From assembly GCA_964409225.1 (NCBI GenBank), contig CAYPCM010000003.1:1-58908 (forward strand): DNA of 58,908 nucleotides, given 5' to 3'. Of the stretch, positions 9,890 through 58,731 are shown piece after piece; the stretch's first letter is position 1, and the number at the start of each line of letters is the position of its first letter. A program made the position numbers and the translations under genes. This stretch comes from an uncultured Candidatus Saccharibacteria bacterium (lineage in GTDB: Bacteria; Patescibacteriota; Minisyncoccia; JACPXH01). Below the pieces are notes generated by a model, which was given only the letters and a program-made list of their open reading frames with translations, did not search any database and was not told the DNA's origin.

Positions 9890-12151
9890 CTACTTCTTAG
9901 CCGCGGTAGAACTCGCCTTAATGGCTTCGAGAAAGCGTTCGGCATCCTCGCGCAAACGCGGCTCGAGCTCGAGAGCTCGACTAAGTGCTTGTTCGGCCTT
10001 TTCAAACTCGCCAATTTCCTTGAGCACCGCCGCGAGCCGCGCCCAAGCGGTCGAATCGGCAGCGGTGACGCTGGTGAGGGCCAAGTATTTTTCAAGAATT
10101 TCAGCCATGCCTCGGTAATCTTTAATTTGACTCAAAACGAATAAATACCGGTTCAAACGCGCCGGGCTGTGCAAGGTGAAGCCCAACTCCTGGGCAAGTT
10201 GAAACTCCGCTTGCATGCGACCCAGATCTCCGGCAAAAGCATAGGCCGCGCCCAAGTTCCAATGCGCTTCGCCCACGTGCGGGGCCAGCGCAACCGCGCG
10301 CTCGATAAGTTCAGCGCCCTCGACGCCCCGACCTTGAGCAATTCGAGCTTGAGCCATGGCGTAGTAGACATGCGGCCGCGTGGGAGAGAGCCGACGCATC
10401 TCCTCGCCCAGAGCGACGGCGCGTTCGTATCGGGCCGGGTCGAATTCTGCGCCAATGTTCAAAAGCTCCATGAGTTGCAAACGATACTGGGCATCGTTTG
10501 GCACCTCACGCACGCTTGCTTCCATTGCGGTGATTGCCGCTTCGATGGCGTGGCGCCGATCGGGAGCTCCTTTCGGGACACCTCCGGCAAACTGCGCGAA
10601 CTGCGAACGCGTCTCGAAACGCTGATAGTCGCCGTAGCCGAGCACCTCCTCGAAGAGCGCGGTGGCACTCCCTACCACGTTCGCCTGTCCGGCCTTGATC
10701 GCCGTCGTGAGCGTAAGGTTTGCCGCAGCCGGACGGAATACAAAGACGATGAGTGCCGTGACCAGCACAACCCCGGCTGCCCCACCCAGCCACCCGGGGA
10801 TCCGACGCGGCGGCCGATCGGGTGCTGACCGAAGGTCCATGTCGCGGCGCGCCAGCCACGCGAGTACAAGCATGAACGGCAGGTAGCTTGCAAGCGTGTC
10901 GAACACGAACAGATTCTGGAGGAGGTATGCCGCCAGAAGTCCCCCGATGATCAATGCCAGCCAGCGATCAGCCGGGTTCGCTCGCGCCACACGCCTGAGA
11001 GTAAACGCTGCGGCGGCGAACATCGCGACATATGCCGCAAGCCCCGTAAGGCCGCTCGTGGTGCCCGCGTCGAAGACGATATTGTGCGCCCGATCAAACC
11101 AAATCTGCGAGCCCTCGTCGCGATAGATGGCGGTTGGAAAATGTTTGTTGAAGGGAATGTTGTAATTCTCGTATCCCCAACCAAACAGTAACCTCTCTTG
11201 CCAGCCGGCCCATGATGCGCGCCACGCCGCAAGGCGCGATTGGGTGGTGATATCGGCAGCCGAAATCGACACGAGCCGGCGCAACACCGCGTTTTCACGC
11301 ACCCATAGTTCCTCGCGACTTGCCCATACTATGCCAGTCAAAATTGCGAGCCCCGCAAGTACGCCGAGTGCGCCGTAACGGACTGAACGCCGAGGCGCTT
11401 TAAACAACGCGCAAAAAAGCAACGCGACTGAAACCACACCGAAAGCCAAAATGGCGCCGCGGGTGGCTGTGCCTAAAAGTGCCGCAAAAAGCATCAGCCA
11501 CGCCGCGCCGTACATTATCCGCCGCCATAATTCTGACCTTCTTATGAAAAGATAAGCTAAAAACGCAAGCTGGAACAAAAGGTACGCCGCAAAAAAACTC
11601 GGGTTGCCCACTGTGCTTGAAAACCGGCTACCGGTAGTGCTGGAAGCAACGAAAAAGGCACCCGCCGCTTGAGCAAAGGCCAAAAGCGTAATGAGCACTG
11701 CCGCGCCCACCGACACCTCCATCACGCGCCACCAATCTTTTTCACGCCTGTTCAAACTCGCGAGCATGACCACGAAAAGCGCAAGGTGCAACAGCATAAG
11801 CACTCCTTCGCCGCGTTCGACATTGCCCCAGAAGCTCCGCTCGGGATTGACGCCGAAGATGCTGGTCGTGATAACGACTACAAGATACGCCCCGCCTGTC
11901 CACCATAGGAGCGACCGGCGCGGACGGTACGCGGGATACCGGATGATGACAAGCAGGTATAAGAACGCCGCTACCTCAATGAGCAACCGGACGTAGAGGG
12001 TCTTCGTCGTGATGAACGGAAAAAAGAAGCGGCTGTTGACGAACAGCGGCGCCACGAATACTGCCGCAAGCAACCAATGCACAAATTTCTTAAGCCCCGG
12101 CTCGGCCATGACTGGGGCTGTCTCCCAATGTTGGCGGTGGTATTTAGCCAT
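9890..12151 (-). CDS. O-antigen ligase/PglL-like (Wzy_C) membrane protein with C-terminal TPR repeats
   Basis: About 12 TMs; STVGNPSFFAAY, TATRGA, SRL..W..SW and GWGYENY...DRAHN motifs; TPR-like C-terminus. Start at MAKYH (12151), overlapping the upstream GT stop. Confidence 0.85.
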   Translation of the reverse strand: MAKYHRQHWETAPVMAEPGLKKFVHWLLAAVFVAPLFVNSRFFFPFITTKTLYVRLLIEVAAFLYLLVIIRYPAYRPRRSLLWWTGGAYLVVVITTSIFGVNPERSFWGNVERGEGVLMLLHLALFVVMLASLNRREKDWWRVMEVSVGAAVLITLLAFAQAAGAFFVASSTTGSRFSSTVGNPSFFAAYLLFQLAFLAYLFIRRSELWRRIMYGAAWLMLFAALLGTATRGAILAFGVVSVALLFCALFKAPRRSVRYGALGVLAGLAILTGIVWASREELWVRENAVLRRLVSISAADITTQSRLAAWRASWAGWQERLLFGWGYENYNIPFNKHFPTAIYRDEGSQIWFDRAHNIVFDAGTTSGLTGLAAYVAMFAAAAFTLRRVARANPADRWLALIIGGLLAAYLLQNLFVFDTLASYLPFMLVLAWLARRDMDLRSAPDRPPRRIPGWLGGAAGVVLVTALIVFVFRPAAANLTLTTAIKAGQANVVGSATALFEEVLGYGDYQRFETRSQFAQFAGGVPKGAPDRRHAIEAAITAMEASVREVPNDAQYRLQLMELLNIGAEFDPARYERAVALGEEMRRLSPTRPHVYYAMAQARIAQGRGVEGAELIERAVALAPHVGEAHWNLGAAYAFAGDLGRMQAEFQLAQELGFTLHSPARLNRYLFVLSQIKDYRGMAEILEKYLALTSVTAADSTAWARLAAVLKEIGEFEKAEQALSRALELEPRLREDAERFLEAIKASSTAAKK

Positions 12152-13400
12152 GCAGAGCAAGTGCGTAATGTTTCTCGAGTGTATCGAGATACTGAGTAAG
12201 AGAAAACTGTGACCGAACGCGCGCGAGACCGGCACGACCAAAGACCTGGGCTCGCTCTGCATCCAAGAGAAGCTCGCGCAGACAGTCGGCGAGGGAGGAA
12301 ACGTCGAAAGGATTAACAATGAAACCGGTTTCTCCATGCACCACTGCCTCGCGACTCCCGCCGAAACAGGTGGCCACGACCGGTTTTGCGGCGGCCATGG
12401 CTTCAAGGACAACATTAGGAAACGAATCGAACACGATCGAAGGCACCGCGACCACATCCGCGACGCCATAGGCGGCGCGGATCTCTAGTGGTGTGAGCCA
12501 ACCAGTGACGCACACGTGCGCGCCGAGCTGCTGGCGCCTCGCTTGAGCGAGAAACGTCTCGCCATAGCCGGTTCGCTCGCCCGCGACAAGCAGTGCGGTC
12601 TGGGGTATGTCTTTGATAATGAGCGCTAGCGCTTCGAGGAGTTGCTTGGCTCCCTTGTCGCTACGCAACCGACCAGCCCACAGAATCACTTTTTTGCCGG
12701 CCAGTCCGAAGCGTTCTCGGAAAGCCGCGACTTCCGCCGGGGCAGACTGCCAAAGGCTTGCATCAATACCGTTATGTATAGTTTCAGTATTAGTAAAACT
12801 ATTTTGCCGAAGCGCTTCACGCAAGGCATCGCTGACCGGAAATATACGGCGAACACACGTAAGCGCTCGGCGAATGAAAAATCGCCGCAAGGGGTTGAAC
12901 TCGAGACGCGCTGCCCGCATCACTTCGTACCAGCGCGTCCGGTAATCAAAGTCGTCTCGTACGCGCAGATTGCCTGGCTGTAGGTACCGATGGGTGCCGA
13001 GCCGACCATAATAGAAAAGCCCCACATCATGAGTGGTCAAAAAGACGCCCTTCGCAAACCGTCGCGCGACCGCGAGAGCCGCATACGACAAATCTAGGTG
13101 GATATTGTGAGCGTGAACGATATCCGGTCGATACTCTGCCAGTAGACGCTTGAGATGCGGAATGGTCTGGTAGTTATAAAGGTTGAAGTAATAGCGGAGC
13201 GACTGCGGATAGCGCGAACGCAGTTCGTGAATAACGAAGCCATCAACACGCATTGGCTCCGGCGCGCCCTCGCGAGAGGCCCGGATTAAAATCACGCGCC
13301 AGCCGCGTCCGGCCAAGCCTCGGGCGTGTTCATGGGCGATCGCCGCGGCCCCACCCAATTCGCGGCTCGCCCGATCAGCGAGCAGACACAATGTCGGCAT
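12144..13400 (-). CDS. Glycosyltransferase family 4
   Basis: HAHN, GRL...KG and DSFPNVVLEAMAAAKPVV GT-B motifs. Start at MPTLC (13400). Confidence 0.9.
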   Translation of the reverse strand: MPTLCLLADRASRELGGAAAIAHEHARGLAGRGWRVILIRASREGAPEPMRVDGFVIHELRSRYPQSLRYYFNLYNYQTIPHLKRLLAEYRPDIVHAHNIHLDLSYAALAVARRFAKGVFLTTHDVGLFYYGRLGTHRYLQPGNLRVRDDFDYRTRWYEVMRAARLEFNPLRRFFIRRALTCVRRIFPVSDALREALRQNSFTNTETIHNGIDASLWQSAPAEVAAFRERFGLAGKKVILWAGRLRSDKGAKQLLEALALIIKDIPQTALLVAGERTGYGETFLAQARRQQLGAHVCVTGWLTPLEIRAAYGVADVVAVPSIVFDSFPNVVLEAMAAAKPVVATCFGGSREAVVHGETGFIVNPFDVSSLADCLRELLLDAERAQVFGRAGLARVRSQFSLTQYLDTLEKHYALALHG

Positions 13401-15129
13401 GGCTTTCCCGCACGGTGATAAAGGGTCCCAATACGAGCACGTCGAGGCGGCCATCAAGAAAGGCTCGCACCGCATCAGTGGGAGTGCAAACAATGGGCTC
13501 TTCGTGCATATTGAAGCTCGTGTTGATCAAGCTTGGCAACCCGGTGAGTCGTTCATACTCTTTAAGAATATCGTAGTAGAGAGAATCGATCTCACGACTG
13601 ATGAGCTGGGGCCGGGCGGTACCGTCAACGTGGACCGCGGCGGACATGTGCCGACGCATATACGGCTTCGCCCGAACAGCAATGGTCATAAATTCTGCTG
13701 CATGTCGACATTTCGATAAACCCTCGTAACACTCTTCAGCTCGTTCAGCGAGTGTCACGGGCGCAAACGGCATGAATTCGGTACGCCGCAGGCGCTGGTT
13801 GAGCCAATCATTAACCTTGGGATCGGTGGCGGGGTACAGAATGGAGCGATGCCCGAGCGCGCGAGGACCGTACTCCATTCGTCCTTGGAAGAGCGCCACC
13901 ACCTTCCCCGCCTGCAGTAACTCGGCAATTTCTCTGGCAGGATCAGTGAGGGTACGGTACGGCAGACCGGCGCGCTCAAAAGCATCGTGCAGCTCGCGCT
14001 CGCTGAAGGCAGGACCGAGGTACACGTTTTTCAGCGCCCGGGGCTCCGTATTGCGCGAGGCCTCGGCGCATGCTTGCAGGGCCGCGCCTAGCGCTTCCCC
14101 CATGTCGCCCATGCCCGGGTGCACAAAGATCTGCCGTACTGACGCAAGCTCCGCAATTAGCATGTTGAGTTTGACGTTCGCAAACACTCCGCCGGCCAGC
14201 GCCACGCGCTCAAGCGAAAATTCTCGCCCATACTCCTTGAATACGCCAAGAACCACCTCTTCGAGCCGCTTCTGGAAAGCCGCAGCCACATCTTCTCGGC
14301 TGAACTGACAGAAGGGCGGAGGTGTGCCGCGATAAAGGAAATGCGCATCAGCGAGAACAAAAAGCTCTGGGGAAACCCGCACCGATCTCCCCTCCTGCCA
14401 GACGAGTCGCGATACCTCTCGGTGGCACGCTTGCGAATCACCAAAAGCGGCGAGGCCCGTAATCTTACCGCCGTGTTTTTTGGGATGGAACCCAAGGATA
14501 CGCGTGACCACCTCGTAGTAACGACCAAGGCTATGGGGCAACGGAATCTCGCCTACTTTCCTCAAGCCTCCGGCCTCACCCCACCAAAAAGAAGCGGTGT
14601 TGGTGAAACTGGAACCCTCAATTACGGCCACGAAGCATTCGGGGAAGCCGGAGGTGTAGTAGGCCGTGGCCGCATGCGCCAAGTCGTGGGCGACGAACAC
14701 AACCCTCCCCCGGAAGCCATTACGGCGCAGGTGCGCGAGCAACCGGTGCAAGCCCCGGTTCGCGCGCGCACAACCGAAGATCGCGGCGATGCCGCTTTGC
14801 CGAAGCAGCCGACCGAAACTAAAGGACCGGGGCGAAAAACAAGAACGCAGGTACCGCCCCCGCGTCACCCACGCACGCTCAGCCTGCTGCCGGAAGCACC
14901 ACCAGTACTTGGCGAACCCCGGCCGCAAGCCGGACAGTGCCACCAGGTCAATCTGGGCTGGCGAGAGATTCGCCATTTCAAGCGCCGCGACAACGGACCG
15001 GAACGGCACCGCATCATCCATCTTCTTACGGCTCAGGCGTTCTTCGTTGATGGCCGCGAGGATGTGACCGTCCCGTACGATCGCTGCCCCACTATCGTGG
15101 GAATCGTATTGGATACCGAGAACAGTCAT
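13375..15129 (-). CDS. O-carbamoyltransferase (NodU/CmcH/TobZ family)
   Basis: HDSGAA, HDLAHAA, GRMEYGPRALGHRSIL, FMPFAP, HVDGTARPQ and NTSFN motifs. Confidence 0.93.
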   Translation of the reverse strand: MTVLGIQYDSHDSGAAIVRDGHILAAINEERLSRKKMDDAVPFRSVVAALEMANLSPAQIDLVALSGLRPGFAKYWWCFRQQAERAWVTRGRYLRSCFSPRSFSFGRLLRQSGIAAIFGCARANRGLHRLLAHLRRNGFRGRVVFVAHDLAHAATAYYTSGFPECFVAVIEGSSFTNTASFWWGEAGGLRKVGEIPLPHSLGRYYEVVTRILGFHPKKHGGKITGLAAFGDSQACHREVSRLVWQEGRSVRVSPELFVLADAHFLYRGTPPPFCQFSREDVAAAFQKRLEEVVLGVFKEYGREFSLERVALAGGVFANVKLNMLIAELASVRQIFVHPGMGDMGEALGAALQACAEASRNTEPRALKNVYLGPAFSERELHDAFERAGLPYRTLTDPAREIAELLQAGKVVALFQGRMEYGPRALGHRSILYPATDPKVNDWLNQRLRRTEFMPFAPVTLAERAEECYEGLSKCRHAAEFMTIAVRAKPYMRRHMSAAVHVDGTARPQLISREIDSLYYDILKEYERLTGLPSLINTSFNMHEEPIVCTPTDAVRAFLDGRLDVLVLGPFITVRESHADIVSAR

Positions 15130-15159
15130 GCAACGCACCACCTACGGTCGTATCGCGCC

Positions 15160-16098
15160 TCAGGACTTAATATTTACCGTGCGACTGATCAGGTACATCG
15201 GTCGCCGTTTCGATTCTTCAAAAATCCGACCGATGTACTCCGCCAAGAAACTCAAACACAAGAGCTGTACGCCGGAGAAGAACAGAACCGTAAGGATGAG
15301 GGTGGGGAAACCTGGAATTTGCCGCGTGAAGAAATACGCAATGAAATAAAAGAGCAGCCCCGCGAAGCTAAGCCCCACGGTGACCATGGCAAGGTACGAG
15401 ATAAACTCAAGCGGTGCATACGAGAATGAAAAAATAGCGAGCTTGGCCCACCGGATGTTCCTCAAAAGGTTGTTCGTGCTACGGCCGCTATAACGCGCAT
15501 CGCGCACGTAGGGTACGCCGGTCTGCCGAAATCCCACCCACGCGCGCAAACCCCGCATGAAGCGATCGCGCTCTGAAAAAAGTTTCATGGCCTCAACCAC
15601 TTTCCGATCGAGCAGCGCGAACTCGCCGGCATCCAAGGGGATGGGCACATACGACAGCGCCCGAAAGAGCCGATAGAAGAGCTTAAAGGCGATGCGCCGA
15701 AAGAGTGTTTCGCGACGCTTCGTGCGCACACCGTAAACCACTTCGTACCCTTCTTGCCATTTCGGAATGAAATCCATAATGAGTTCGGGTGGATCCTGCA
15801 GGTCGCCGTCCATCAACACCACCCCATCGCCGGTCGCATGATCGAGCCCGCAGGTGAAAACGCGATGGATGCCGAAGTTGCGCGAAAAACAAATCACCTT
15901 GAGGCGCGTATCAGTAGCTGCAAGTCTCTCCAGCACTGCCTGCGAGTTGTCGGGGCTCGCGTCGTTGACGTAGATCACCTCCCAGTGGGGGGTGACCCGC
16001 TCGAGGGCAGCCGAAAGTCGCTCCCAGAGAATTGGGATGATGTGCTCCTCCTGGTAGCAGGGTACGATGACGGTGATTTTCTTGTCAGTGAGAAGCAT
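15160..16098 (-). CDS. GT2 polyprenol-phosphate glycosyltransferase (GtrB type, two C-terminal TMs)
   Basis: VNDASPD, SRNFG, MDGDLQDPPE and RAWVGF motifs. Confidence 0.9.
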   Translation of the reverse strand: MLLTDKKITVIVPCYQEEHIIPILWERLSAALERVTPHWEVIYVNDASPDNSQAVLERLAATDTRLKVICFSRNFGIHRVFTCGLDHATGDGVVLMDGDLQDPPELIMDFIPKWQEGYEVVYGVRTKRRETLFRRIAFKLFYRLFRALSYVPIPLDAGEFALLDRKVVEAMKLFSERDRFMRGLRAWVGFRQTGVPYVRDARYSGRSTNNLLRNIRWAKLAIFSFSYAPLEFISYLAMVTVGLSFAGLLFYFIAYFFTRQIPGFPTLILTVLFFSGVQLLCLSFLAEYIGRIFEESKRRPMYLISRTVNIKS

Positions 16099-17101: not shown

Positions 17102-17102
17102 A

Positions 17103-18059: not shown

Positions 18060-18060
18060 G

Positions 18061-23929: not shown

Positions 23930-23989
23930 AGCAGAACATACAGTATCACAAGCCATCAAGAAAATGAAGGGTGTTTAAACCGACCGGAT

Positions 23990-24680: not shown

Positions 24681-24713
24681 GCACAATGCCACAAGACAGA
24701 AAGGAGGGAGACG

Positions 24714-28080: not shown

Positions 28081-28086
28081 GCCGGC

Positions 28087-28536: not shown

Positions 28537-28543
28537 ATTCTGT

Positions 28544-30333: not shown

Positions 30334-30399
30334 ACGCCTAACTCGACGGTAACCCAACGAACGACCGAAATCAATATGGCCAGTGCGTGCTCCGTGATT

Positions 30400-31651: not shown

Positions 31652-31680
31652 GCGGCAAACCCCCGAATATCGGGGTGGGA

Positions 31681-45515: not shown

Positions 45516-45668
45516 CGCTTTTTTTTCGAACAAGAAAGGCGGGGGGACACGCTGCCCGCGAATCGGTCGCGTACCCGCCATTCGTCGAGCACAAAAATCT
45601 GCTCAGTGATTGACATGATCGTACAACGCACCGTGAAAACCCGCTGTTACTATAGCGTACCCGCTTGT

Positions 45669-49554: not shown

Positions 49555-49561
49555 GCCAAGT

Positions 49562-49633
49562 CGCTACAACTTCGAATGAGAAATTGAGAAAAAATGCAAT
49601 GCCGTACCGCACTTCGTGTTCGAAGTTGTAGCG
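49562..49633. repeat. Intergenic element with perfect 15-bp terminal inverted repeats
   Basis: CGCTACAACTTCGAA ...42 nt... TTCGAAGTTGTAGCG, followed by a GACATGG/CCATGTC hairpin. Confidence 0.7.
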
Positions 49634-49670
49634 CTGGACATGGCTGTAATCAAAAATCTACCATGTCTTG

Positions 49671-51055: not shown

Positions 51056-51096
51056 AATTGCCAACCACAACCGGACGACTTCTTGGTTTCACAGAC

Positions 51097-52260: not shown

Positions 52261-52277
52261 GGGCATTCCCTGCGTGT

Positions 52278-55109
52278 TCAGTCAATTTCCCGCAGCTCCA
52301 CGATGGGTCCGAGACGATCAAAGGAGAATATCGCCCAAACTGGCTGAAGATCGTTCCCTAAGAAATCACGCGAGGCGCCATCCTGCCGACCGACAAATGC
52401 TTTGAGCAGCCGTGAACGGTCTCGCAGGGTTTTCGTCGCTGGGGTGATTTCGATCAACGACTGATACTGCACGAGTGCGAACTTCCGACCCGGCTGCTGG
52501 AGAAACTGCGCGAGGGCCGAGGAAGCGGCGGCATCGCTCAAGAAGTGAAGATTGGTAAGTTCGTAGCGCGGCTGGCGGGACTGCGGCCAGGACGTTTCCG
52601 GCACAGCCAAAAGCGCTCGATCAAAAGAGCGCAGCGACGTGGGATCAAGAGCTGCCTGGGCCTCGAGACTCGCGCGGGAGGGAGTAAGGCGCACTCCGCG
52701 CAGCAAACTTACGATGTTCGCTCCGGCCGGTACATACGCCTCAATATACTGTTTGGCGAGGAGTCGCGTGTCAGTTCGCAAGAGCAAAAAATCGAATCGC
52801 ACGAGGATCGCCGCCGCGAACGCTACGGGAATCACAAACGCTGGCCAGGTCACTACCGGCCATCGCTCGAGCAGGTAATCAATGAATGCCGCTGCGGCCA
52901 AGATCAAAACCGGCAACAGAAATAATGCGTAGCGAACCTCCTGATGCATAAAGAGATAAAAAGCCAGCAGGTACGCCACCGTAAATACTGCCAAGAATAC
53001 CACTATCCTCCGATCACGCCAGAAAAGATACCCGAGACCGGCAAGGCCGGCCACCAAAATGAGGGGTTCGTATGCCCAAAGCACCTGGGCGTAGTAGCCG
53101 AAGACAGCGAAGAACCCACCAACCGATTTTACCGCGGCAGCGGCACCGGCCTCACGCACGAGGATGCGAGAAAACGATTGGTGCAGCACAATCGAAAACG
53201 CACTGAGAGCGATTGCTGCCGTGACCGCCAGCCACAAGTTGGCCGACCGCAGCCGCGCCGACCATGCCTCGCGTCCCGAAGTGACGTGCGCCGTCAACAC
53301 AAAAAGAAGTCCCAAGACCGACACGTAGTCAATCCCGAACCCAAGGCCGGCCAACAGCCCGGCCGCAAGGTACTGGTGACGCAGGGCGCGCGGTGCAAGA
53401 CCTTGACGCAGGCCACTGCGGATTTTAACGCTCATCCACAGTCCCAAAAGCAGTACCAATAGCGATGGCGGCCAGTGCCGAGCGAAATGCGAAAGGCTTG
53501 CGGCAAAGAAACTCGTGGCGAGGAGGGCAGCCGCGATCAGTCCTGCCCGACGATTGAAAAGATCGCGGCCGATGAAGTACAGAACGCCCACCGAAACCGT
53601 GCCCAGCACGACCGACATAAACCGCGCCGCCAGCCACACCACGGTCGGATCAAGTGCAATCTCTTGCCGAAACTCCGCCAAGCTTTGAGCACCAGAAAAT
53701 AAATACTGCAGCCCGAGCACAGGCAGAAATAGGACGAGTTCGGCGTAGTATATAAGCGGCGGCAGGTAGAAGGGCGCAAAGGCCGGGCCGGCCAAAGCGG
53801 GCACAAGTTGTTTGAGCTCTAACATCTTGAGCGCTCCGCCCACGAACGTTTCTTCATCGCCCACGAGCCGGTACGGGAGGCCGTACGAGATTCCGACGAC
53901 GCGCAGAAGGAATGCAGCTACAACGATGACAAGGAGAAGCGCGCTCGTCGGATTTTTGATTTTTGATTTGTATTTTTGCTCTTTGATTTTTGATTTTTGA
54001 TTTTTCAAAGCCGCTGCTTGCTCCACGAACCCTACGAGCCGCTCGCCAATCCGTACCGTGGTAAATTCTCGCAGAAACAGCTTGTGTCCCGCCCGTGCGA
54101 TCCGATCGCGCAGTACCGGATCGTCGCGCAGCCGCCGAATGGCTGCCGCGAGCGCAGCTGGATCTTCCGACGGCACCAACAGCGCGTCAACTCCGTCGGT
54201 AAACACCTCGCGGCTGGCTGGAGAGTCCTGGGTAATGAGGGGCTTGGCGCAGGCAATCGCTTCGTAGGCCTTGTTGGGAACCACGCGCGCGCCTTTGGCA
54301 GTGGCGCCAAAAATGCCGAGACACACGTCTGCTTTAACCATTCGTTCGGGCAACTCCTCATACGGCACCGACTCTTCAAAACGAACATTTTGAAGATCCC
54401 AGCTAGCCGCGAGACGGCGCATCTCGCCGTACTGCTGGCCGCGACCTATGATGCTGAAACGCACCGATTCACGGGCGAGTTCCCGCGCCGCGCCCAGAAT
54501 AACACGCACTCCTTGCAAAGGAATAAAATGGCCGTGAAAGTGAACAGTGAAATCGCGCTGCGGCGCGATTTCACTGTTCGTCGCCTGCCCGGGCGCTGAA
54601 AACGCCGTAGGCCCTGATAGCGGCTGCATAATCGTCTCCACGCTTCCGACGGGCAATACACCTATTCGATCTGACCTCAAGCGGAACGCGCGGGTGTAGT
54701 ATTCGCGCTGCGCTTCGGTATCCACCAACACAAAATTCGCCAGATGCATCGAGAAAAAATCCAGCAAAAATCGCCACCACGCGCCGAACCCATGGGGCCG
54801 CACCACCGCGCGATCGTAAACATCAGAATCATATAGGGATGTAAACGCGTCAAAAACAATCGGCTTGCGGCTAATCAAGCGGGCAAGCAACATCGCGGTC
54901 TGGCCGGGAAAACAAACCACCATGACATCGTATTCGTCGCGCACAACGCGGTGTTTCTTGACGAGGTGCCAGTACTTGCGCCAGCCGGGCGTTCGGTCTT
55001 GAACCATCATCACGCGCCAGCCGACGCACTCAAGCCCAAGCCGAATCATGCGACTCCTCGAGTAACCGGGGCTGAAGATACCGAACATGCAGGCGGTTCG
55101 CTCACGCAT
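52278..55109 (-). CDS. Fusion ORF: GT4 domain + repeat-encoded linker + ArnT/PMT-like GT-C membrane domain
   Basis: First ~365 aa are GT-B (HGHFIPLQG, VPNKAYEAIA). Linker KNQKSKIKEQKYKSKIKN. Then a TM, GLPYRLVGDEE loop, ARFMSV.LG and about 10 more TMs. Confidence 0.75.
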   Translation of the reverse strand: MRERTACMFGIFSPGYSRSRMIRLGLECVGWRVMMVQDRTPGWRKYWHLVKKHRVVRDEYDVMVVCFPGQTAMLLARLISRKPIVFDAFTSLYDSDVYDRAVVRPHGFGAWWRFLLDFFSMHLANFVLVDTEAQREYYTRAFRLRSDRIGVLPVGSVETIMQPLSGPTAFSAPGQATNSEIAPQRDFTVHFHGHFIPLQGVRVILGAARELARESVRFSIIGRGQQYGEMRRLAASWDLQNVRFEESVPYEELPERMVKADVCLGIFGATAKGARVVPNKAYEAIACAKPLITQDSPASREVFTDGVDALLVPSEDPAALAAAIRRLRDDPVLRDRIARAGHKLFLREFTTVRIGERLVGFVEQAAALKNQKSKIKEQKYKSKIKNPTSALLLVIVVAAFLLRVVGISYGLPYRLVGDEETFVGGALKMLELKQLVPALAGPAFAPFYLPPLIYYAELVLFLPVLGLQYLFSGAQSLAEFRQEIALDPTVVWLAARFMSVVLGTVSVGVLYFIGRDLFNRRAGLIAAALLATSFFAASLSHFARHWPPSLLVLLLGLWMSVKIRSGLRQGLAPRALRHQYLAAGLLAGLGFGIDYVSVLGLLFVLTAHVTSGREAWSARLRSANLWLAVTAAIALSAFSIVLHQSFSRILVREAGAAAAVKSVGGFFAVFGYYAQVLWAYEPLILVAGLAGLGYLFWRDRRIVVFLAVFTVAYLLAFYLFMHQEVRYALFLLPVLILAAAAFIDYLLERWPVVTWPAFVIPVAFAAAILVRFDFLLLRTDTRLLAKQYIEAYVPAGANIVSLLRGVRLTPSRASLEAQAALDPTSLRSFDRALLAVPETSWPQSRQPRYELTNLHFLSDAAASSALAQFLQQPGRKFALVQYQSLIEITPATKTLRDRSRLLKAFVGRQDGASRDFLGNDLQPVWAIFSFDRLGPIVELREID
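53952..54006. repeat. Tandem heptamer array (ATTTTTG)n, about 8 imperfect units, inside a coding frame
   Basis: atttttg atttttg atttgt atttttg ctctttg atttttg atttttg atttttc. Confidence 0.85.
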
Positions 55110-56172
55110 GGTTGAACGCGGAAATGATTCGATCGGCGAGTGCCGAAAGATTGTGCTCTTTGACTACAATCTCCCGTAGCGCCTGACCGAGTTCGCGGCG
55201 TTCCTCTGGCGCCATCCGCCGGAGCTGCTCAAGCCGATCAGCAAGCTCATAGGCGTTGTCTTTCTCAAACGTAAGCAGATGCGTCCAAGGAGAGAGCATC
55301 TGCCTGAATGCCTCGGAAGAACTAACTACTGGCAGCCCGCACGCCATGGCTTCGAGCACTACTTTGTCCATGCTGCCGGTTTCGGAACTATGCACGAGAA
55401 CGTCTGCTTCCTGATACGAACGCACAATCCTATCATGCGCGACTCCGCCCAAAAACTGCACCGCCACCTCAACCCCGCGGTCGCGCGCCAAGCGCCTTAG
55501 TTTTTCGCGATACGACCCCTGCCCGGCCAGACCCGGATCGCCGATGATGGTTAGCGTAACGCCTTCTCGCTCTTCCGGTGCCATAACGGCAAGCGCGGCT
55601 ATGGGCAGTTCATAACGCTTGACCGGCGAAAGGCGTCCGACGGCAATCATTCGAAACCGCCGGCCAGAAGCCCTCTCCGACAAAATGTCCGCAGCCGGCC
55701 TAAACTCCTCCGTATCAATGCCGTGCCCCACCACGCGCGTTTTCTGGCTGGGGAGACGAAAACTTTCGGGCGAAGCCGTAAGCACAACGTCGGCTAGGCG
55801 ATGCATAAGCCGAAGTTTGAAATCAACGGATTTATGCGTGTACCAAGACACGAGCCGTCGCCGCCTCATCTTCGCCCACGGCGCAGCCAAAATCGTATAG
55901 ATCGGGTTTTGGTGACAGAACACGCCGTCTGCCTCGCGCGTAAGCTGCCAACCAAAACGCATGAACCCGAGCAGCTGGCGGAACTTTCCGGCGCCGGCTT
56001 CTTTGCCGAGCGAGAAAATTCTCACATTTGACGGCGCCACCCAGGTCCGGCGCTCCTGACAAATCACATCGAGACGCTGCACGCGTTCGGCCAACGCCGC
56101 AATCCAACGCACGGTAAAACCGGCGAGGGTGTCGGTGGGGTCAATTTTTCGCGTGATCATTAGGAGACGCAT
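55102..56172 (-). CDS. Glycosyltransferase family 4
   Basis: VGRLSPVK and GSMDKVVLEAMACG motifs. Confidence 0.92.
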   Translation of the reverse strand: MRLLMITRKIDPTDTLAGFTVRWIAALAERVQRLDVICQERRTWVAPSNVRIFSLGKEAGAGKFRQLLGFMRFGWQLTREADGVFCHQNPIYTILAAPWAKMRRRRLVSWYTHKSVDFKLRLMHRLADVVLTASPESFRLPSQKTRVVGHGIDTEEFRPAADILSERASGRRFRMIAVGRLSPVKRYELPIAALAVMAPEEREGVTLTIIGDPGLAGQGSYREKLRRLARDRGVEVAVQFLGGVAHDRIVRSYQEADVLVHSSETGSMDKVVLEAMACGLPVVSSSEAFRQMLSPWTHLLTFEKDNAYELADRLEQLRRMAPEERRELGQALREIVVKEHNLSALADRIISAFNHA

Positions 56173-56196
56173 GTCGTTTATTCGTTAACTATAAGT

Positions 56197-56317
56197 CATC
56201 TCAAAATTAGCTCACGCCATTATTGTTCAAGCTTGTCGAGAACAATAACTGCTTACATAAAGGCGTCTTCTCGACTTCGCTCGAAGAATAACGCCCCTTT
56301 TTGAGAATTTTGAGATG
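56197..56317. repeat. Nested palindromic element
   Basis: Outer perfect 12-bp arms CATCTCAAAATT/AATTTTGAGATG. Inner arms TTATTGTTCAAGCTTGTCGAGAA and TTCTCGACTTCGCTCGAAGAATAA are shared with 6405-6516. Confidence 0.75.
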
Positions 56318-56330
56318 GGTTCTAGTTGGC

Positions 56331-57473
56331 TTACTTTGCTTGGAAGGCAACCCGCTGCCAAAACGCGATCATGCGGCTGATGACAAAATCGGGGTCGAAT
56401 CGCTTACGGAGAATCGCGGCTGCGTTTTCGCCAAGCCGATGCGCTTCGTCCGGATGCTCGAGCGCCCACGCCAGTCGCTCAGTAAGTGCCGAGGTGTCCC
56501 CCACCGGCACGAGCCAGCCCGACTTGCCGTCCGAAACGATATCCTGCGCACCGATCGTGGCGGTCGCGATGACCGGACACCTCGCCATCCCCGCTTCGAT
56601 GAGCACCTTGCCTAAACTCTCGGCATAGGAAACGAGCACCGTTACCGCAGCAGCCCCATACAGTGCCGGCAGCTCCTCCTGGGAGATGCTTCCGAGGAAC
56701 GAAACGTCAGCCGCGATGCCCAACCGCGCTGCCCGGCGCTCGAGCGCTGCGCGCTCGGGGCCGTCGCCGACCATAACGAGGGCTGCGCGATGGGTACTGC
56801 GAACCGCCGCAAATGCATCCAACAGCATCGGCACGTTCTTAATTTTCACGAGGCGTCCCACGAAAAGCACGATGGGCCGCCCGGCCCAACGCGCTCGAAC
56901 TTTCTCAACTGCCGTCTGCTCCGGCTCGGCAAAACGATCAAGTACCACGGGTGTAGGAATCACTGTTATGCGCTCGGCTGGAATTCCGGAACGCCGCAAC
57001 GCGCCGGCTATGCCCGCAGAAATCGGCCGCAGGCCGTCAGCGCGCCTAACCACATACGACATAATCGGCCGGCAGAAAAAATAGACCAGCGACTCGCGCC
57101 AGTACACGGCGTTGCCCCAAAAGTCGCCGTGCAAATCAACAATAAGCGGGATGCCAAAACGCCGCTTAACCCGCAAACCGACAAGGCCGGTAAACAAAGG
57201 GTCTTGGGCCACAACCAAATTCGGCCGGTGACGCTCGCAGATGGCGCGGCCAATCCGCCAGGCGTCAACGGGGCGGCTCAAGCGGAAACGCGAATTGGTG
57301 GGCCAAATATCCACCTTGGCACTCGGGCTGGCCGGAAGAAAACCGCGCGGCGAAAAGACGATAATATCGAGTTTGCCCACGCGCTCGCCGTATTTTACGT
57401 GGCGCGTCAAAACATCCCCGGCACCAGGGACGCCGAGAAAACCGCGATCTAGACTGATCATGAGAACGCGCAT
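56331..57473 (-). CDS. Glycosyltransferase family 4
   Basis: FVGRL...K and ESLGKVLIEAG motifs. Confidence 0.92.
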   Translation of the reverse strand: MRVLMISLDRGFLGVPGAGDVLTRHVKYGERVGKLDIIVFSPRGFLPASPSAKVDIWPTNSRFRLSRPVDAWRIGRAICERHRPNLVVAQDPLFTGLVGLRVKRRFGIPLIVDLHGDFWGNAVYWRESLVYFFCRPIMSYVVRRADGLRPISAGIAGALRRSGIPAERITVIPTPVVLDRFAEPEQTAVEKVRARWAGRPIVLFVGRLVKIKNVPMLLDAFAAVRSTHRAALVMVGDGPERAALERRAARLGIAADVSFLGSISQEELPALYGAAAVTVLVSYAESLGKVLIEAGMARCPVIATATIGAQDIVSDGKSGWLVPVGDTSALTERLAWALEHPDEAHRLGENAAAILRKRFDPDFVISRMIAFWQRVAFQAK

Positions 57474-57477
57474 ACGA

Positions 57478-57596
57478 AAATTTCTAATTCCTAATGTCTA
57501 ATTTCTAATGAATGTCTAATGATAAATCTCTTTCGTCGTTTGGGGTTTAGTCATTGGGGCTTGATTTGACATTAGAAATTAGGAATTAGACATTCA
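57478..57596. repeat. 7-nt-periodic palindromic element (same family as 1134-1277); contains the stop codon of the upstream GT4
   Basis: Left arm aatttct-aattcct-aatgtct-aatttct-aatgaat; right arm tgacatt-agaaatt-aggaatt-agacatt. Confidence 0.8.
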
Positions 57597-58731
57597 TCCT
57601 CGTTGCCTTCCCCAAAATCGCGATAGTTTCGGTCATCATCCGCTCGAACGAAAACCGCTCTAGACCCGCAAACGCGTTTGCGGCAAGCCGTTCGCGCAGT
57701 GCGGGATCGGCCATTAGTTTTCGGATGGCGTCTGCTGCCGCCGCAGGTGTCGGTTCGACCACGAGGCCGCTTACGCCGTCTTCCACGACCTCGCGGTTGC
57801 CGCCAGCAGACGAGACGACAACCGGCGTGCGCGCCGCCATAGCCTCAAGCACCGTGTGCGGCAATCCTTCATAGGCAGAAAGCAATGCAAAAACATCCGC
57901 CCCTGCCAGATATTCGAACACCTGCCCGCGCGGCAAACGGCCGGTAAACCTAACCCGCCCCGAAATACCTTCATGTCCCGCAATCCGCTCAAGCCGAGAG
58001 CGATCCGGCCCGTCGCCAATAATAACAAGTCGCACGCCGTTGAGTCGCACCACTGCCGCAATCAAAGTGTCAAATCCCTTCCACGGCACCAGCCGCCCTA
58101 CGGACACGACGACCGATCCGGAAAAGTCCAACTCGCGGCGCGCCGCGTCCCGCTCCGGGACTGTGAGTGCGTCAAACGCATTATAAACCACCACGATCCG
58201 CTCCGGCCCGACTCCCCAACCCGCAACGATACGGGCAAGGTACTGACTCGGCACGATGACGCGGCTCGCGCTACGCGCGACCAGCCGTTCGAAGAACCGG
58301 AGCAGCCGCACGCGAAGCCCGCCTGCGCTCCGGCGTTGGAACTCGTCAATGCCGTGGCGGCCGCCTGCATGCTGGTACGCCTCCCAAGCGTAATCACCCA
58401 CCACTTTTACGACGAAGGGAACCCCTGTCTTCCGACTCACCCACAATGCAGGCAACCCGCTACCAATGGGCCCCTGCGCGTAGATAACGCTTGCTTCATG
58501 CGTCCAGGCGGCGAGTGCGCGCGTATACGCACGGTACTGCCCGAACTTGCCACGGCGCACGACACGCACGACAGGAAACGAGTACGGCCGCCCGTCCGCA
58601 CGATCGCTGTAACAGACAAGCCGCACCGGCACGCCGCGCCGATGCAGTTCCTCGGCGAGCGATTCCGAGTAGCTCGCGGGGCCCCCGATGTCGGGCGGAA
58701 AAATTTCAGCGGCGATGAGAATACGAATCAT
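57586..58731 (-). CDS. Glycosyltransferase family 4
   Basis: FPPDIGGPA, GRLVPWKG and YEGLPHTVLEAMAA motifs. Confidence 0.92.
   Translation of the reverse strand: MIRILIAAEIFPPDIGGPASYSESLAEELHRRGVPVRLVCYSDRADGRPYSFPVVRVVRRGKFGQYRAYTRALAAWTHEASVIYAQGPIGSGLPALWVSRKTGVPFVVKVVGDYAWEAYQHAGGRHGIDEFQRRSAGGLRVRLLRFFERLVARSASRVIVPSQYLARIVAGWGVGPERIVVVYNAFDALTVPERDAARRELDFSGSVVVSVGRLVPWKGFDTLIAAVVRLNGVRLVIIGDGPDRSRLERIAGHEGISGRVRFTGRLPRGQVFEYLAGADVFALLSAYEGLPHTVLEAMAARTPVVVSSAGGNREVVEDGVSGLVVEPTPAAAADAIRKLMADPALRERLAANAFAGLERFSFERMMTETIAILGKATRMNV

What the first reader, a model, noticed from the sequence alone, without database searches (positions are those of the whole stretch)
9890..58731. About 49-kb lipid-carrier glycan assembly system with an unusually large set of GT-C-type transferases
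Seen in sequence: a WaaL/PglL-like TPR protein, a Wzx-like flippase, four GT2s of polyprenol-P-sugar synthase type, five stand-alone GT4s plus one fused GT4, a GT9, and at least six large multipass proteins with acidic first loops (19077, 39201, 41258, 43404, YfhO 45669, and the ArnT-like half of 52278). Established: GT-C enzymes transfer sugars from polyprenol-P donors outside the membrane, and GtrB/DPM1-type GT2s make those donors. Inference: this is a core glycan plus several parallel decoration channels (NDP-sugar to polyprenol-P-sugar to GT-C) for protein or envelope glycosylation in a probable CPR organism, where such a system is largely uncharacterised.
Basis: partly seen in the sequence, partly recalled or inferred. 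Interest (0 to 1): 0.7.

Follow-up and report, generated by a model that had tools for sequence, protein, structure and literature searches.

The report
CPR surface-glycan locus, six GT-C transferases
This groundwater Parcubacteria-type (CPR) bacterium has a sugar-coat gene cluster of more than 60 kb in which lipid-carrier sugar loaders sit beside six membrane transferases of the GT-C fold, four of them from two families with no database model; it is a rich example of a known type of pathway in a group whose cell envelope is almost unstudied.

Summary
Every listed gene class is present at the stated coordinates.

**The four unannotated multipass proteins are GT-C fold.**
- AlphaFold models of 41258-43273 (pLDDT 84) and 19077-20696 (pLDDT 81) give only GT-C structures as their top 20 Foldseek hits: ArnT, STT3/PglB, DPY19, AftA/AftD, Emb, ALG.
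- 39201 and 43404 are tandem paralogs of 41258.
- YfhO and the PMT_2 half of the fusion pass the Pfam thresholds.
- All four families keep acidic residues just after TM1.

- Only two of the four GT2s (15160, 37482) are full-length GtrB/ArnC/PgfS type with two C-terminal TM helices.
- The locus runs about 17 kb past the window. That stretch adds a second Wzy_C-TPR paralog and a secreted, Thr/Ser-rich 1193-aa protein, which is a candidate acceptor.
- The same GT2/GT-C modules recur in Parcubacteria, Doudnabacteria and Roizmanbacteria genomes, so the set is not unusual within CPR.

[quoted passage not shown] It is a new variant of a known kind.

The parts
9890..12151 (-). Wzy_C (O-antigen-ligase / O-oligosaccharyltransferase-type) membrane domain plus C-terminal TPR domain. 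The ORF runs to 12469, but the likely start is the ATG at 12151.
   Evidence: Pfam Wzy_C 61 bits (cutoff 31.7) plus several TPR models. It is 39.5% identical to a second Wzy_C-TPR paralog beyond the window.
12144..13493 (-). GT4 glycosyltransferase; part of conserved module B.
   Evidence: Pfam Glycos_transf_1 and Glyco_transf_4. 42% identical orthologs lie next to the carbamoyltransferase and a 41258-family GT-C in L003, L007 and L010.
13375..15141 (-). NodU-like O-carbamoyltransferase (sugar carbamoylation).
   Evidence: Pfam Carbam_trans_N/C; NCBIfam NodU 146 bits, below the cutoff.
15160..16098 (-). GT2, GtrB/ArnC/PgfS-type polyprenol-phosphate sugar synthase with two C-terminal TM helices.
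   Evidence: NCBIfam PgfS 252 bits and ArnC 155 bits, both full-length but below the equivalog cutoffs. TM helices at 236-254 and 267-285. 81% identical orthologs in L003, L005 and L006.
16196..19110 (-). SAM methyltransferase (16196-17215) and two SDR sugar dehydratase/epimerase genes (17103-18152, 18061-19110).
   Evidence: Pfam; NCBIfam dTDP-glucose 4,6-dehydratase / LegB-like, below cutoffs. Syntenic with the GT2 and the GT-C in L003, L005 and L006.
19077..20696 (-). GT-C-fold membrane glycosyltransferase of a small family with no Pfam model. The first loop has invariant H37-D38 and the C-terminal domain has four invariant Cys.
   Evidence: No Pfam or NCBIfam hit. Eight homologs. AF2 pLDDT 80.9, pTM 0.79. 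Foldseek top 20 are all GT-C: STT3 6ezn TMq 0.53, PglB, DPY19, ALG12, AftD, Emb.
20687..21442 (-). SAM methyltransferase.
   Evidence: Pfam.
21447..22784 (-). Wzx-type (MOP superfamily) lipid-linked sugar flippase.
   Evidence: Pfam Polysacc_synt 59.8 bits and Polysacc_synt_3. About 12 hydrophobic segments.
22781..23959 (-). GT9-family glycosyltransferase (heptosyltransferase family).
   Evidence: Pfam Glyco_transf_9 65 bits. NCBIfam heptosyltransferase III/II 84/77 bits, below cutoffs.
24072..25292 (+). Two plus-strand ORFs: an unknown 202-aa protein and a P-loop kinase-like 192-aa protein.
   Evidence: Pfam AAA_33 30.5 bits and APS_kinase 23.5 bits for 24714-25292; nothing for 24072-24680.
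25611..26978 (-). B12-binding radical SAM enzyme (probable C-methyltransferase type).
   Evidence: Pfam Radical_SAM plus B12-binding. NCBIfam HpnJ/BchE-like, below cutoffs. A 92% identical ortholog lies in L012.
27211..30357 (.). NDP-deoxyhexose genes: RmlD-like (27211-28080, +), RmlC-like cupin (28087-28536, -), SDR (28544-29596, -) and glucose-1-phosphate cytidylyltransferase-like (29554-30357, -).
   Evidence: Pfam. NCBIfam rmlD 175 bits and G1P_cyt_trans 259.5 bits, both just below cutoff.
30400..31200 (-). Short GT2 without TM helices; possibly a DPM1/GtrB-catalytic-domain type, not proven.
   Evidence: Pfam GT2. PDB best hits are GtrB 5ekp (1.8e-10), ArnC and DPMS 5mlz. No TM helices.
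31560..37560 (+). Branched-chain deoxysugar genes: RfbH/E1-like 3-dehydrase, ThDP enzyme of the acetolactate-synthase/YerE type, SDR, and a split transketolase-like pair.
   Evidence: NCBIfam RfbH 403.6 bits (cutoff 423) and acolac_lg 466 bits (cutoff 538). Transketolase N and C halves.
37482..38504 (+). Second GtrB/ArnC/PgfS-type GT2 with two C-terminal TM helices.
   Evidence: NCBIfam PgfS 236 bits and ArnC 150 bits, full-length. TM helices at 263-281 and 283-301. The TK-TK-GT2 adjacency is also found in L016 and L022.
39201..41261 (-). GT-C paralog 1 of the tandem triplet.
   Evidence: 37% identical to 41258-43273 over 661 aa, E 5e-119. It has the family's D, E..E and HYN..VND..GK..LLYET motifs.
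41258..43273 (-). GT-C paralog 2; the modelled member of a large CPR-centred family with no Pfam model.
   Evidence: AF2 pLDDT 84, pTM 0.87. Foldseek top 20 are all GT-C: ArnT 5f15 E 1.8e-5, DPY19, AftA, STT3, PglB, PIGU, ALG9, Pmt4. The family profile finds 2547 representatives at E<=1e-3. Distant members have no Pfam model for the membrane part.
43404..45581 (-). GT-C paralog 3, divergent. It keeps D32 but lacks the two otherwise invariant loop-1 glutamates.
   Evidence: 29% identical to 41258, E 9e-64. E56 is Q and E59 is V, the only such case in 20 sequences.
45669..48098 (-). YfhO-family GT-C.
   Evidence: Pfam YfhO 47.2 bits (cutoff 28.5). Invariant FADGD after TM1. Orthologs lie beside the 48095-type GT2 in L003, L007, L010 and L012; in L011 a YfhO-like gene is present without that GT2 next to it.
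48095..48835 (-). Short GT2 overlapping the YfhO start by 4 bp. It is the likely donor synthase for YfhO (inferred).
   Evidence: Pfam GT2. PDB ArnC and 3bcv partial matches. 74-85% identical orthologs are always adjacent to the YfhO-like gene.
48814..51070 (-). Methyltransferase, SDR and methyltransferase.
   Evidence: Pfam. Syntenic in L003, L007, L010 and L012.
51097..52266 (-). GT4.
   Evidence: Pfam.
52278..55109 (-). Fusion of a cytoplasmic GT4 domain (about residues 1-365) to a PMT_2 (ArnT/PMT-type) GT-C domain (about 385-943).
   Evidence: Pfam Glyco_trans_1_4 72.7 bits plus PMT_2 34.9 bits (cutoff 26.1). The D-E motif is invariant. The fusion is kept in a 60% identical homolog.
55102..58731 (-). 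Three tandem GT4 genes (55102-56172, 56331-57473, 57586-58731). The array continues beyond the window.
   Evidence: Pfam. Continuation on JACPLK010000008.1.

Best explanation
This is the larger part of a surface-glycoconjugate biosynthesis super-locus of about 66 kb in a groundwater Parcubacteria-type CPR bacterium. It combines two modes of lipid-carrier glycosylation.

(1) Cytoplasmic mode. Enzymes make unusual NDP-sugars: a CDP-linked 3-deoxy/branched-chain route with an RfbH-like and a YerE-like ThDP enzyme, a transketolase-like pair, rhamnose-type genes, methyl- and carbamoyl-transferases and a B12 radical SAM enzyme. GT4 and GT9 transferases assemble an oligosaccharide on a polyprenol carrier. 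A Wzx-type protein flips it. A Wzy_C-TPR protein ligates it to its acceptor.

(2) Extracytoplasmic mode. In parallel, GT2 enzymes load single modified sugars onto polyprenol phosphate. Two of them are clear GtrB/ArnC/PgfS type; two are short forms. After flipping, six GT-C-fold enzymes transfer these sugars to the glycan or directly to protein outside the membrane. The six are one 19077-type, three tandem 41258-type, one YfhO, and one PMT_2 domain fused to a GT4.

What is shown: domain identities, the GT-C fold of two families, conserved acidic loop-1 residues, and conserved GT2/GT-C gene pairing across CPR genomes.

What is inferred: donor sugars, order of action, which protein flips what, and the acceptor. 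My favoured acceptor, at about 45%, is the secreted Thr/Ser-rich 1193-aa protein encoded next to the second Wzy_C-TPR gene just beyond the window.
For: - Domain content.
- GT-C fold: AF2 models with pLDDT 84 and 81. The Foldseek top 20 are exclusively GT-C at probability >=0.84, and probability falls to <=0.13 from rank 21.
- Paralogy of 39201 and 43404 to 41258.
- Weak profile link between the 41258 family and PMT_2 (hhalign probability 41%, E 2.8e-4).
- Conserved acidic loop-1 residues in all four GT-C families.
- Two GT2s align full-length with PgfS and ArnC and have two C-terminal TM helices.
- Conserved modules in other CPR genomes: GT2(48095)-YfhO-41258-type GT-C; Wzx-carbamoyltransferase-GT4-41258-type GT-C; and GT2(15160)-MT-SDR-SDR-split TK-19077-type GT-C.
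- The GT2s are far more conserved (74-85% identity) than their GT-C partners (35-50%), as expected for a shared donor and diverging acceptors or linkages.
- Distant members of the 41258 family carry CBM96, Laminin_G_3 or disaggregatase-repeat domains, which fits work on extracellular carbohydrate.
- Published precedent for GT-A/GT-C gene pairs, TM-less GT-A variants and Wzx-type flippases for C55-P-sugars: PMC8035078, PMC5836110, PMC11127046, PMC12041528.
- A secreted protein with 24% Thr+Ser and no Cys lies next to Wzy_C-TPR.
Against: - There is no biochemical evidence of any kind.
- No initiating phosphoglycosyl transferase (PF00953 or PF02397) and no GtrA-type flippase was seen in the window or in the 17-kb extension.
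- TM-scores to solved GT-Cs are moderate (0.35-0.53).
- GT2 30400 and GT2 48095 cannot be told apart from ordinary cytoplasmic GT2s by sequence.
- Copy 3 (43404) lacks two family-invariant glutamates and may be inactive or differently specific.
- The candidate acceptor protein was found only in this genome's extended locus, not in the other fetched loci.
Confidence: 0.75

Rival explanations
1. Extracytoplasmic assembly line. The six GT-C enzymes do not decorate a pre-made core. Instead they build most of a polymer stepwise outside the membrane from polyprenol-P-monosaccharides, as in mycobacterial arabinogalactan, lipomannan and LAM. The Wzx-like protein flips the monosaccharide donors.
For: - No initiating phosphoglycosyl transferase was found in about 77 kb examined.
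- There are several GT-C families and tandem paralogs, as in the Emb/Aft/Mpt sets. Foldseek hits include AftA, AftD and EmbA/B/C.
- MOP/MATE-type flippases can carry polyprenol-P-sugars (PMC11127046, PMC8035078).
- Earlier scan notes report even larger GT-C arrays in Microgenomates (unchecked).
Against: - Eight or more GT4 genes, a GT9 and two Wzy_C-TPR proteins point to a cytoplasmically built, en bloc-transferred oligosaccharide as well.
- The initiating enzyme may simply lie elsewhere in the genome, which could not be checked.
Confidence: 0.15
2. Ordinary O-antigen/LPS locus of a diderm bacterium: Wzx, a WaaL-type ligase, a GT9 core heptosyltransferase, and Gtr-type O-antigen modification.
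For: Wzy_C, Wzx, GT9 and GtrB-like GT2s are all classical LPS-locus components.
Against: - All close relatives of the locus genes come from CPR/Patescibacteria MAGs.
- A curated Parcubacteria genome lacks lipid A and LPS genes, including lpxC and kdsA, and the CPR envelope is described as unclear (PMC5220378).
- The ligase carries a TPR domain, and a secreted Thr/Ser-rich protein sits beside its paralog.
- No ADP-heptose genes are in the window. The PfkB kinase gives only 44 bits to rfaE domain I against a cutoff of 345.
Confidence: 0.03
3. Some or all of the unannotated multipass proteins are not active glycosyltransferases. They could be GT-C-fold pseudoenzymes, scaffolds (like PIGU) or transporters.
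For: - PIGU, a non-GT member of the fold, is among the Foldseek hits.
- Copy 3 has lost two invariant glutamates.
- There is no sequence-level match to any solved GT-C.
Against: - The acidic loop-1 residues and an invariant Lys plus always-acidic positions in a second outside loop are strictly conserved in 19 of 20 family members.
- Linkage to GT2 donor synthases is constant.
- Carbohydrate-binding modules are fused in distant members.
Confidence: 0.05

Closest known systems
Multi-component (three-component) transmembrane glycosylation systems of Gram-positive bacteria: CsbB/GtcA/YfhO, GtlA/GtlB, GacI-J-K-L, CsdAB/CD/EF (PMC8035078, PMC5836110).
   Same: - A GT-A (GT2) polyprenol-P-sugar synthase is encoded next to a GT-C transferase.
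- YfhO and PMT_2 families are used.
- TM-less GT2 variants and Wzx-type flippases are known in these systems.
- One cell can have several parallel pairs.
   Different: - Four GT-C families with six genes sit in one locus.
- Two of the families have no Pfam model.
- No GtrA flippase is seen.
- Sugar-tailoring genes (methyltransferases, SDRs, split transketolase) lie inside the GT2/GT-C modules.
- The host is a CPR bacterium with no known teichoic acid or rhamnan acceptor.
Streptococcal protein O-glycosylation of Ser/Thr-rich regions by GtrB/PgtC2 and PgfS/PgfM1/PgfM2 (PMC12041528).
   Same: - The two long GT2s score best against the PgfS model (252 and 236 bits).
- GT-C enzymes act on extracytoplasmic Ser/Thr-rich protein segments.
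- A Thr/Ser-rich secreted protein is encoded in the extended locus.
   Different: - The scores are below the PgfS equivalog cutoff of 500.
- The acceptor here is only a candidate.
- The locus also has a Wzx/GT4/Wzy_C branch, which the Pgf system lacks.
Mycobacterial and corynebacterial arabinogalactan/LAM machinery: Emb, AftA-D, Mpt, PimE with decaprenyl-P-Araf and polyprenol-P-Man (own knowledge; structures 8if8, 6w98, 7bvf appear).
   Same: - Many GT-C enzymes from several families work outside the membrane from polyprenol-P-monosaccharide donors.
- Paralogs occur in tandem.
   Different: - There is no sequence relationship.
- The donors are different: no UbiA-type PRPP transferase or DprE genes are seen.
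- The genome is much smaller.
O-antigen modification by GtrA/GtrB/Gtr(type) and the GT136 pentofuranose three-component system (PMC11127046).
   Same: - The same logic applies: lipid-linked donor synthase, flippase (MATE/MOP type in GT136 systems), then GT-C acting after export.
- Auxiliary epimerases diversify the sugar.
   Different: - The acceptor there is LPS O-antigen in diderms; here the organism is presumably LPS-free.
- The synthases here are GT2s, not PRPP-dependent enzymes.
S-layer glycoprotein glycosylation (slg) clusters of Geobacillus and Paenibacillus with the Wzy_C-type O-oligosaccharyltransferase WsfB (own knowledge, not checked here).
   Same: - A monoderm context.
- A Wzy_C-domain enzyme, rhamnose and deoxysugar genes, and a surface-protein gene close to the cluster.
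   Different: - The ligases here carry C-terminal TPR domains and occur twice.
- A large GT-C complement is added.
- The S-layer nature of the 1193-aa protein is unproven.

Membership tests
GT-C fold glycosyltransferase superfamily | Polytopic membrane protein (8-13 or more TM helices) structurally similar to solved GT-C enzymes. | tested here: met
   Models of 41258-43273 and 19077-20696 give only GT-C structures as their top 20 Foldseek PDB hits, at probability >=0.84 and TM 0.35-0.53. 39201 and 43404 are included by 37% and 29% identity to 41258; they were not modelled.
GT-C fold glycosyltransferase superfamily | Conserved acidic residue(s) (DxD-like motif) in the first extracytoplasmic loop after TM1. 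| tested here: met
   D32/E56/E59 in the 41258 family (19 of 20); H37-D38 invariant in the 19077 family; D36 in FADGD in the YfhO-like family; D-E invariant in the PMT_2 half. Exception: 43404 has Q and V at the two Glu positions.
GT-C fold glycosyltransferase superfamily | Uses a polyprenol-phosphate-linked sugar donor on the outer face of the membrane. | not testable with these tools
   Inferred only from conserved adjacency to GT2 genes.
YfhO (PF09586) | Score above the Pfam gathering threshold. | tested here: met
   47.2 bits against a cutoff of 28.5, but in two partial stretches, the best at the C-terminus. The ortholog in L003 has no Pfam hit on record.
PMT_2 (PF13231; ArnT/PMT-type GT-C) | Score above the Pfam gathering threshold, plus the loop-1 D-E motif. 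| tested here: met
   34.9 bits against a cutoff of 26.1 for residues 493-639 of the fusion. Invariant D-E in the alignment with stand-alone PMT_2 homologs.
GtrB/ArnC/PgfS-type polyprenol-phosphate glycosyltransferases | GT2 catalytic domain followed by juxtamembrane helices and two C-terminal TM helices, with full-length similarity to GtrB, ArnC or PgfS. | tested here: met
   Met for 15160-16098 and 37482-38504: the PgfS and ArnC models are aligned end to end and two C-terminal TM helices are present. The scores (252 and 236 bits) are below the equivalog cutoff of 500, so these are family-level members, not PgfS or ArnC orthologs.
GtrB/ArnC/PgfS-type polyprenol-phosphate glycosyltransferases | The same feature, applied to the two short GT2s (30400-31200, 48095-48835). 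| tested here: not met
   Only the N-terminal catalytic domain matches and there are no TM helices. A DPM1- or GacI-like TM-less role remains possible for 48095, because it is always adjacent to the YfhO-like gene.
Three-/multi-component transmembrane glycosylation system | A dedicated flippase for the polyprenol-P-sugar (GtrA-type or Wzx/MATE-type). | tested here: inconclusive
   No small 4-TM GtrA-like ORF was found in the window. One Wzx-type protein is present, but its substrate cannot be assigned.
Wzx/Wzy-dependent LPS O-antigen locus | An initiating phosphoglycosyl transferase and a lipid A/core pathway in the genome. | not testable with these tools
   No PF00953 or PF02397 protein was seen in the window or in the 17-kb extension. 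Published Parcubacteria genomes lack lpxC and kdsA (PMC5220378).
Wzy_C (PF04932) ligase / O-oligosaccharyltransferase | Score above the Pfam gathering threshold in a polytopic protein. | tested here: met
   61 bits against a cutoff of 31.7. Whether it is a ligase, an O-OTase or a polymerase cannot be told from sequence. PDB search matched only the TPR part.

The most novel reading that the evidence does not exclude
CPR bacteria may build their surface coat mainly outside the membrane. In this reading, lineage-specific GT-C families do the work: the 41258 type (at least 2,500 sequence clusters, no Pfam model) and the 19077 type. They are fed by polyprenol-P-linked sugars that are heavily tailored (branched by transketolase/ThDP enzymes, methylated, carbamoylated). 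The product is attached to a Thr/Ser-rich S-layer-like protein by TPR-bearing Wzy_C enzymes. That would define two or more new CAZy GT families and a distinct envelope-glycosylation strategy for a major bacterial radiation.
Probability: 0.3. Interest if true: 0.75.

Novelty: new variant of a known kind. Interest (0 to 1): 0.55.

Why it matters
The envelope of CPR/Patescibacteria is essentially undescribed. PMC5220378 says its formation and structure 'remain unclear', and my searches found no relevant paper linking Patescibacteria or the Candidate Phyla Radiation with GT-C enzymes (the single hit is an unrelated chicken-microbiota study). Yet these episymbionts live by surface contact with their hosts.

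This locus gives concrete, testable parts:
- two GtrB-type donor synthases;
- four GT-C families, two of them without any database model and one very large;
- a rare GT4-GT-C fusion;
- two TPR-bearing ligases;
- a candidate glycoprotein substrate.

Characterising the new GT-C families would add glycosyltransferase families and could explain strain-level surface variation in CPR.

Tried and rejected
- **Sequence and profile searches against the PDB.** The 41258, 19077, YfhO-like and PMT_2 alignments gave nothing useful. Only fold comparison revealed the GT-C relationship.
- **Profile-profile comparisons among the four GT-C families.** These gave no relation, except a weak 41258-family/PMT_2 link. 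I treat them as four separate families.
- **Relaxed Pfam thresholds (E<=5).** Nothing credible appeared for the four unannotated proteins. There was a non-significant DUF6798 hit for 19077.
- **PDB search with the Wzy_C-TPR protein.** Only TPR proteins matched.
- **The 1193-aa protein.** No Pfam hit is on record for the called gene, and NCBIfam and PDB searches gave no match.
- **Exact look-up of the GT9 product.** This failed, probably because the start codon differs.
- **Expression evidence.** No RNA run holds the sequence; only groundwater DNA runs do.
- **Rfam and tRNA scans.** The window is empty for both.
- **The ORFs at 38507-39139 and 24779-25399.** I considered and rejected them as genes. 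They have no family hit, no TM helices and a low-complexity, out-of-frame look.
- **PfkB at 136-1128 as a heptose kinase for the GT9.** I rejected this. It scores 44 bits against a cutoff of 345, and ribokinase scores better.

Full report
**Where the window comes from**

The window is a 58,908-bp assembly of a groundwater metagenome population.
- Identical or near-identical DNA lies on two contigs of NCBI assembly GCA_016186535.1. The left part, including GAPDH, is on JACPLK010000016.1. The part from window 49,836 to the end is on JACPLK010000008.1 at 99.98% identity.
- A Logan contig covers window 41,146-51,355 at 100% identity. This shows that the join between the two NCBI contigs is real.
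- GC content is 53-60%.
- Upstream of the finding (1-9,805) lie pentose-phosphate and glycolysis genes with a split transketolase, thioredoxin reductase, a cupredoxin and DsbA. These do not belong to the glycan system.
- Named relatives of the locus proteins are from Candidatus Parcubacteria, Doudnabacteria, Uhrbacteria, Roizmanbacteria and 'Patescibacteria group' MAGs.
- Earlier notes of this scan also call this genome Parcubacteria (not independent evidence).

**Checking the inventory**

- Wzy_C+TPR, a Wzx-type Polysacc_synt protein, four GT2s, five stand-alone GT4s, a GT4 fused to PMT_2, a GT9 and a YfhO protein.
- A dense set of sugar-nucleotide and tailoring enzymes: a NodU-like carbamoyltransferase, five methyltransferases, six SDRs, RmlC-like and RmlD-like genes, a glucose-1-phosphate cytidylyltransferase-like gene, an RfbH-like 3-dehydrase, an acetolactate-synthase/YerE-type ThDP enzyme, a second split transketolase-like pair and a B12 radical SAM enzyme.
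- Four large multipass proteins (19077, 39201, 41258, 43404) with no Pfam or NCBIfam match, even at E<=5.

**Are the unannotated membrane proteins GT-C?**

*The tandem triplet.* 39201, 41258 and 43404 are tandem paralogs, 37% and 29% identical to 41258.
- A 20-sequence alignment gave an AF2 model of 41258 with pLDDT 84 and pTM 0.87.
- Its 20 best Foldseek matches in the PDB are all GT-C fold: ArnT 5f15, DPY19, AftA, STT3, PglB, PIGU, ALG9 and Pmt4. Probabilities are >=0.99 and TM-scores 0.35-0.53. From rank 21 the probability falls to <=0.13.

*19077.* It is unrelated to the triplet by sequence and has only eight homologs.
- Its model (pLDDT 81, pTM 0.79) likewise matches only GT-C structures in the top 20: STT3, PglB, DPY19, ALG12, AftD and Emb.

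*Conserved residues.* Each family conserves acidic residues directly after TM1.
- 41258 family: D32 and E56/E59. It also has an invariant Lys and two always-acidic positions in the HYN..VND..GK..LLYET loop, which lies outside the membrane by my helix count.
- 19077 family: H37-D38.
- YfhO-like: D36 in FADGD.
- PMT_2 half: D-E.

The four families show no profile-level relation to one another, except a weak 41258-family/PMT_2 link (probability 41%). The count of six GT-C genes therefore stands. Two were modelled, two rest on paralogy, and two rest on Pfam thresholds.

**How large are the new families?**

A profile of the 41258 family finds 2,547 representatives at E<=1e-3 and 279 at E<=1e-30, among 1.84 billion 50%-identity cluster representatives.
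- Thirty-five distant members have no Pfam model for the membrane domain. A few carry CBM96, Laminin_G_3 or disaggregatase repeats.
- The few that have names are called 'hypothetical protein', from CPR MAGs.

**The GT2s**

- 15160 and 37482 align end to end with the PgfS and ArnC models (252/155 and 236/150 bits, below the equivalog cutoffs). Each has two C-terminal TM helices. They are GtrB/ArnC-type polyprenol-phosphate sugar synthases at family level.
- 30400 and 48095 are short, have no TM helices, and match only the catalytic domain of GtrB, ArnC or DPMS. Sequence alone does not show that they are donor synthases.
- 48095 overlaps the YfhO start codon. Its 74-85% identical orthologs always sit beside a YfhO-like gene in other CPR genomes. 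This mirrors the csbB-yfhO operon of B. subtilis (PMC5836110) and the TM-less GacI type (PMC8035078).

**Conserved neighbourhoods**

I ran tblastn with all window proteins against loci from other genomes. Three modules recur:
- (A) SDR-MT-GT2(48095)-YfhO-like, followed by one to three 41258-type GT-Cs.
- (B) Wzx-carbamoyltransferase-GT4-41258-type GT-C.
- (C) GT2(15160)-MT-SDR-SDR-split transketolase-19077-type GT-C.

The donor-side GT2s are much more conserved than the GT-Cs (35-50% identity). Tandem duplication of the 41258 type is common (L008, L009, L011, L012, L013). The system is therefore a recurrent CPR design, not a peculiarity of this genome. Earlier scan notes report 19-20 GT-C genes per 64 kb in Microgenomates (unchecked).

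**Beyond the window**

JACPLK010000008.1 continues the locus for about 17 kb. It adds:
- an epimerase-GT4 fusion and another GT4;
- a second Wzy_C-TPR gene, 39.5% identical to the first, and a TPR protein;
- a 1193-aa protein with a signal peptide, 24% Thr+Ser and no Cys; no Pfam hit is on record for it, and NCBIfam and PDB searches found nothing;
- a DeoR regulator, a long-form RmlA (381 bits, above the cutoff), a dehydratase, a methyltransferase and a GT2.

No initiating phosphoglycosyl transferase and no GtrA-type flippase appear anywhere in the roughly 77 kb examined.

**Mechanism**

- Modified NDP-sugars are made in the cytoplasm.
- Some are used by GT4 and GT9 enzymes to build a lipid-linked oligosaccharide, which is flipped and then ligated by Wzy_C-TPR.
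- Others are loaded singly on polyprenol phosphate by GT2s, flipped, and transferred by the GT-C enzymes outside the membrane.

Domain identity, fold, conserved residues and gene linkage are shown here. Donors, order of action, flippase assignment and acceptor are inferred.

The Thr/Ser-rich secreted protein next to the second ligase is my favoured acceptor, at about 45%. Precedents are streptococcal GtrB/PgtC2 and PgfS/PgfM glycosylation of Ser/Thr-rich regions (PMC12041528) and, from my own knowledge, S-layer glycosylation by Wzy_C-type enzymes.

The main rival is stepwise extracytoplasmic polymerisation, as in mycobacterial arabinan and mannan synthesis.

**Verdict**

- Corrections: two of the four GT2s are not proven donor synthases; the locus is larger than the window; and the GT-C set is large for bacteria in general but typical for CPR.
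- Novelty: a new variant of a known kind. It contains two GT-C families without database models and a rare GT4-GT-C fusion. I found only one other fused homolog, at 60% identity and with a different linker.

Noticed in passing
L019:588-17954 (JACPLK010000008.1, beyond window position 58908): The locus continues for about 17 kb. It adds an epimerase-GT4 fusion (724 aa), a GT4, a second Wzy_C-TPR paralog (39.5% identical to the window's), a TPR protein, a DeoR regulator, a long-form RmlA, a dehydratase, a methyltransferase and a GT2. It ends at a Trypsin_2 protease gene.
   Followed up: partly
L019:6273-9854: A 1193-aa protein with an N-terminal signal peptide, 14.7% Thr, 9.1% Ser and no Cys. 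No Pfam hit is on record for it, and NCBIfam and PDB searches found nothing. It is a candidate S-layer-like glycoprotein substrate and sits directly upstream of the TPR and Wzy_C-TPR genes.
   Followed up: partly
window 43404-45581: Copy 3 of the tandem GT-C triplet is the only one of 20 family members that lacks the two otherwise invariant loop-1 glutamates (E56 is Q, E59 is V). It also has NDH instead of NF(F/V) in the HYN motif. It may have a changed specificity or be a pseudoenzyme.
   Followed up: partly
window 35735-38504; also L016:1970-4655, L022:5901-11319, L005:10195-15811: A split transketolase-like pair is repeatedly encoded next to a GtrB-type GT2 in Parcubacteria and Roizmanbacteria; L022 has two pairs. 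This suggests that a two-carbon-branched or chain-extended sugar is the one loaded onto polyprenol phosphate.
   Followed up: partly
window 28544-34864: A CDP-sugar route resembling yersiniose or 3,6-dideoxyhexose synthesis: G1P cytidylyltransferase-like (259 bits), RfbH/E1-like 3-dehydrase (404 bits) and a YerE/acetolactate-synthase-type ThDP enzyme. No E3 reductase gene is in the window.
   Followed up: partly
window 53952-54010: The linker between the GT4 and PMT_2 domains (KNQKSKIKEQKYKSKIKN) is encoded by AAAAATC 7-nt repeats. The fusion itself is real, because a 60% identical homolog is also fused, with a different linker.
   Followed up: yes
window 19077-20696 and 9080-9805: The 19077 family has four invariant cysteines in its C-terminal soluble domain, which fits an extracytoplasmic, disulfide-bonded domain. 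A DsbA gene abuts the locus.
   Followed up: no
window 24072-25292 (+): Two plus-strand ORFs lie inside the otherwise minus-strand block. One is an unknown 202-aa protein. The other is a P-loop kinase-like protein (AAA_33 / APS-kinase-like) that could phosphorylate or help sulfate a sugar.
   Followed up: no
L020:1-9769: In a sibling genome (GCA_964373035.1), eight GT4 genes, with one unannotated 367-aa gene among them, precede the GT4-PMT_2 fusion gene. They include what looks like a duplicated 381/384-aa pair. This suggests rapid turnover of the cytoplasmic GT set.
   Followed up: no
window 2375-2986: A 203-aa protein with five TM helices and no family match is encoded between the two halves of the housekeeping split transketolase.
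   Followed up: no
window 38505-39200: A convergent intergenic gap of about 700 bp lies between GT2 37482 and GT-C 39201, with no credible ORF. Its content was not examined.
   Followed up: no
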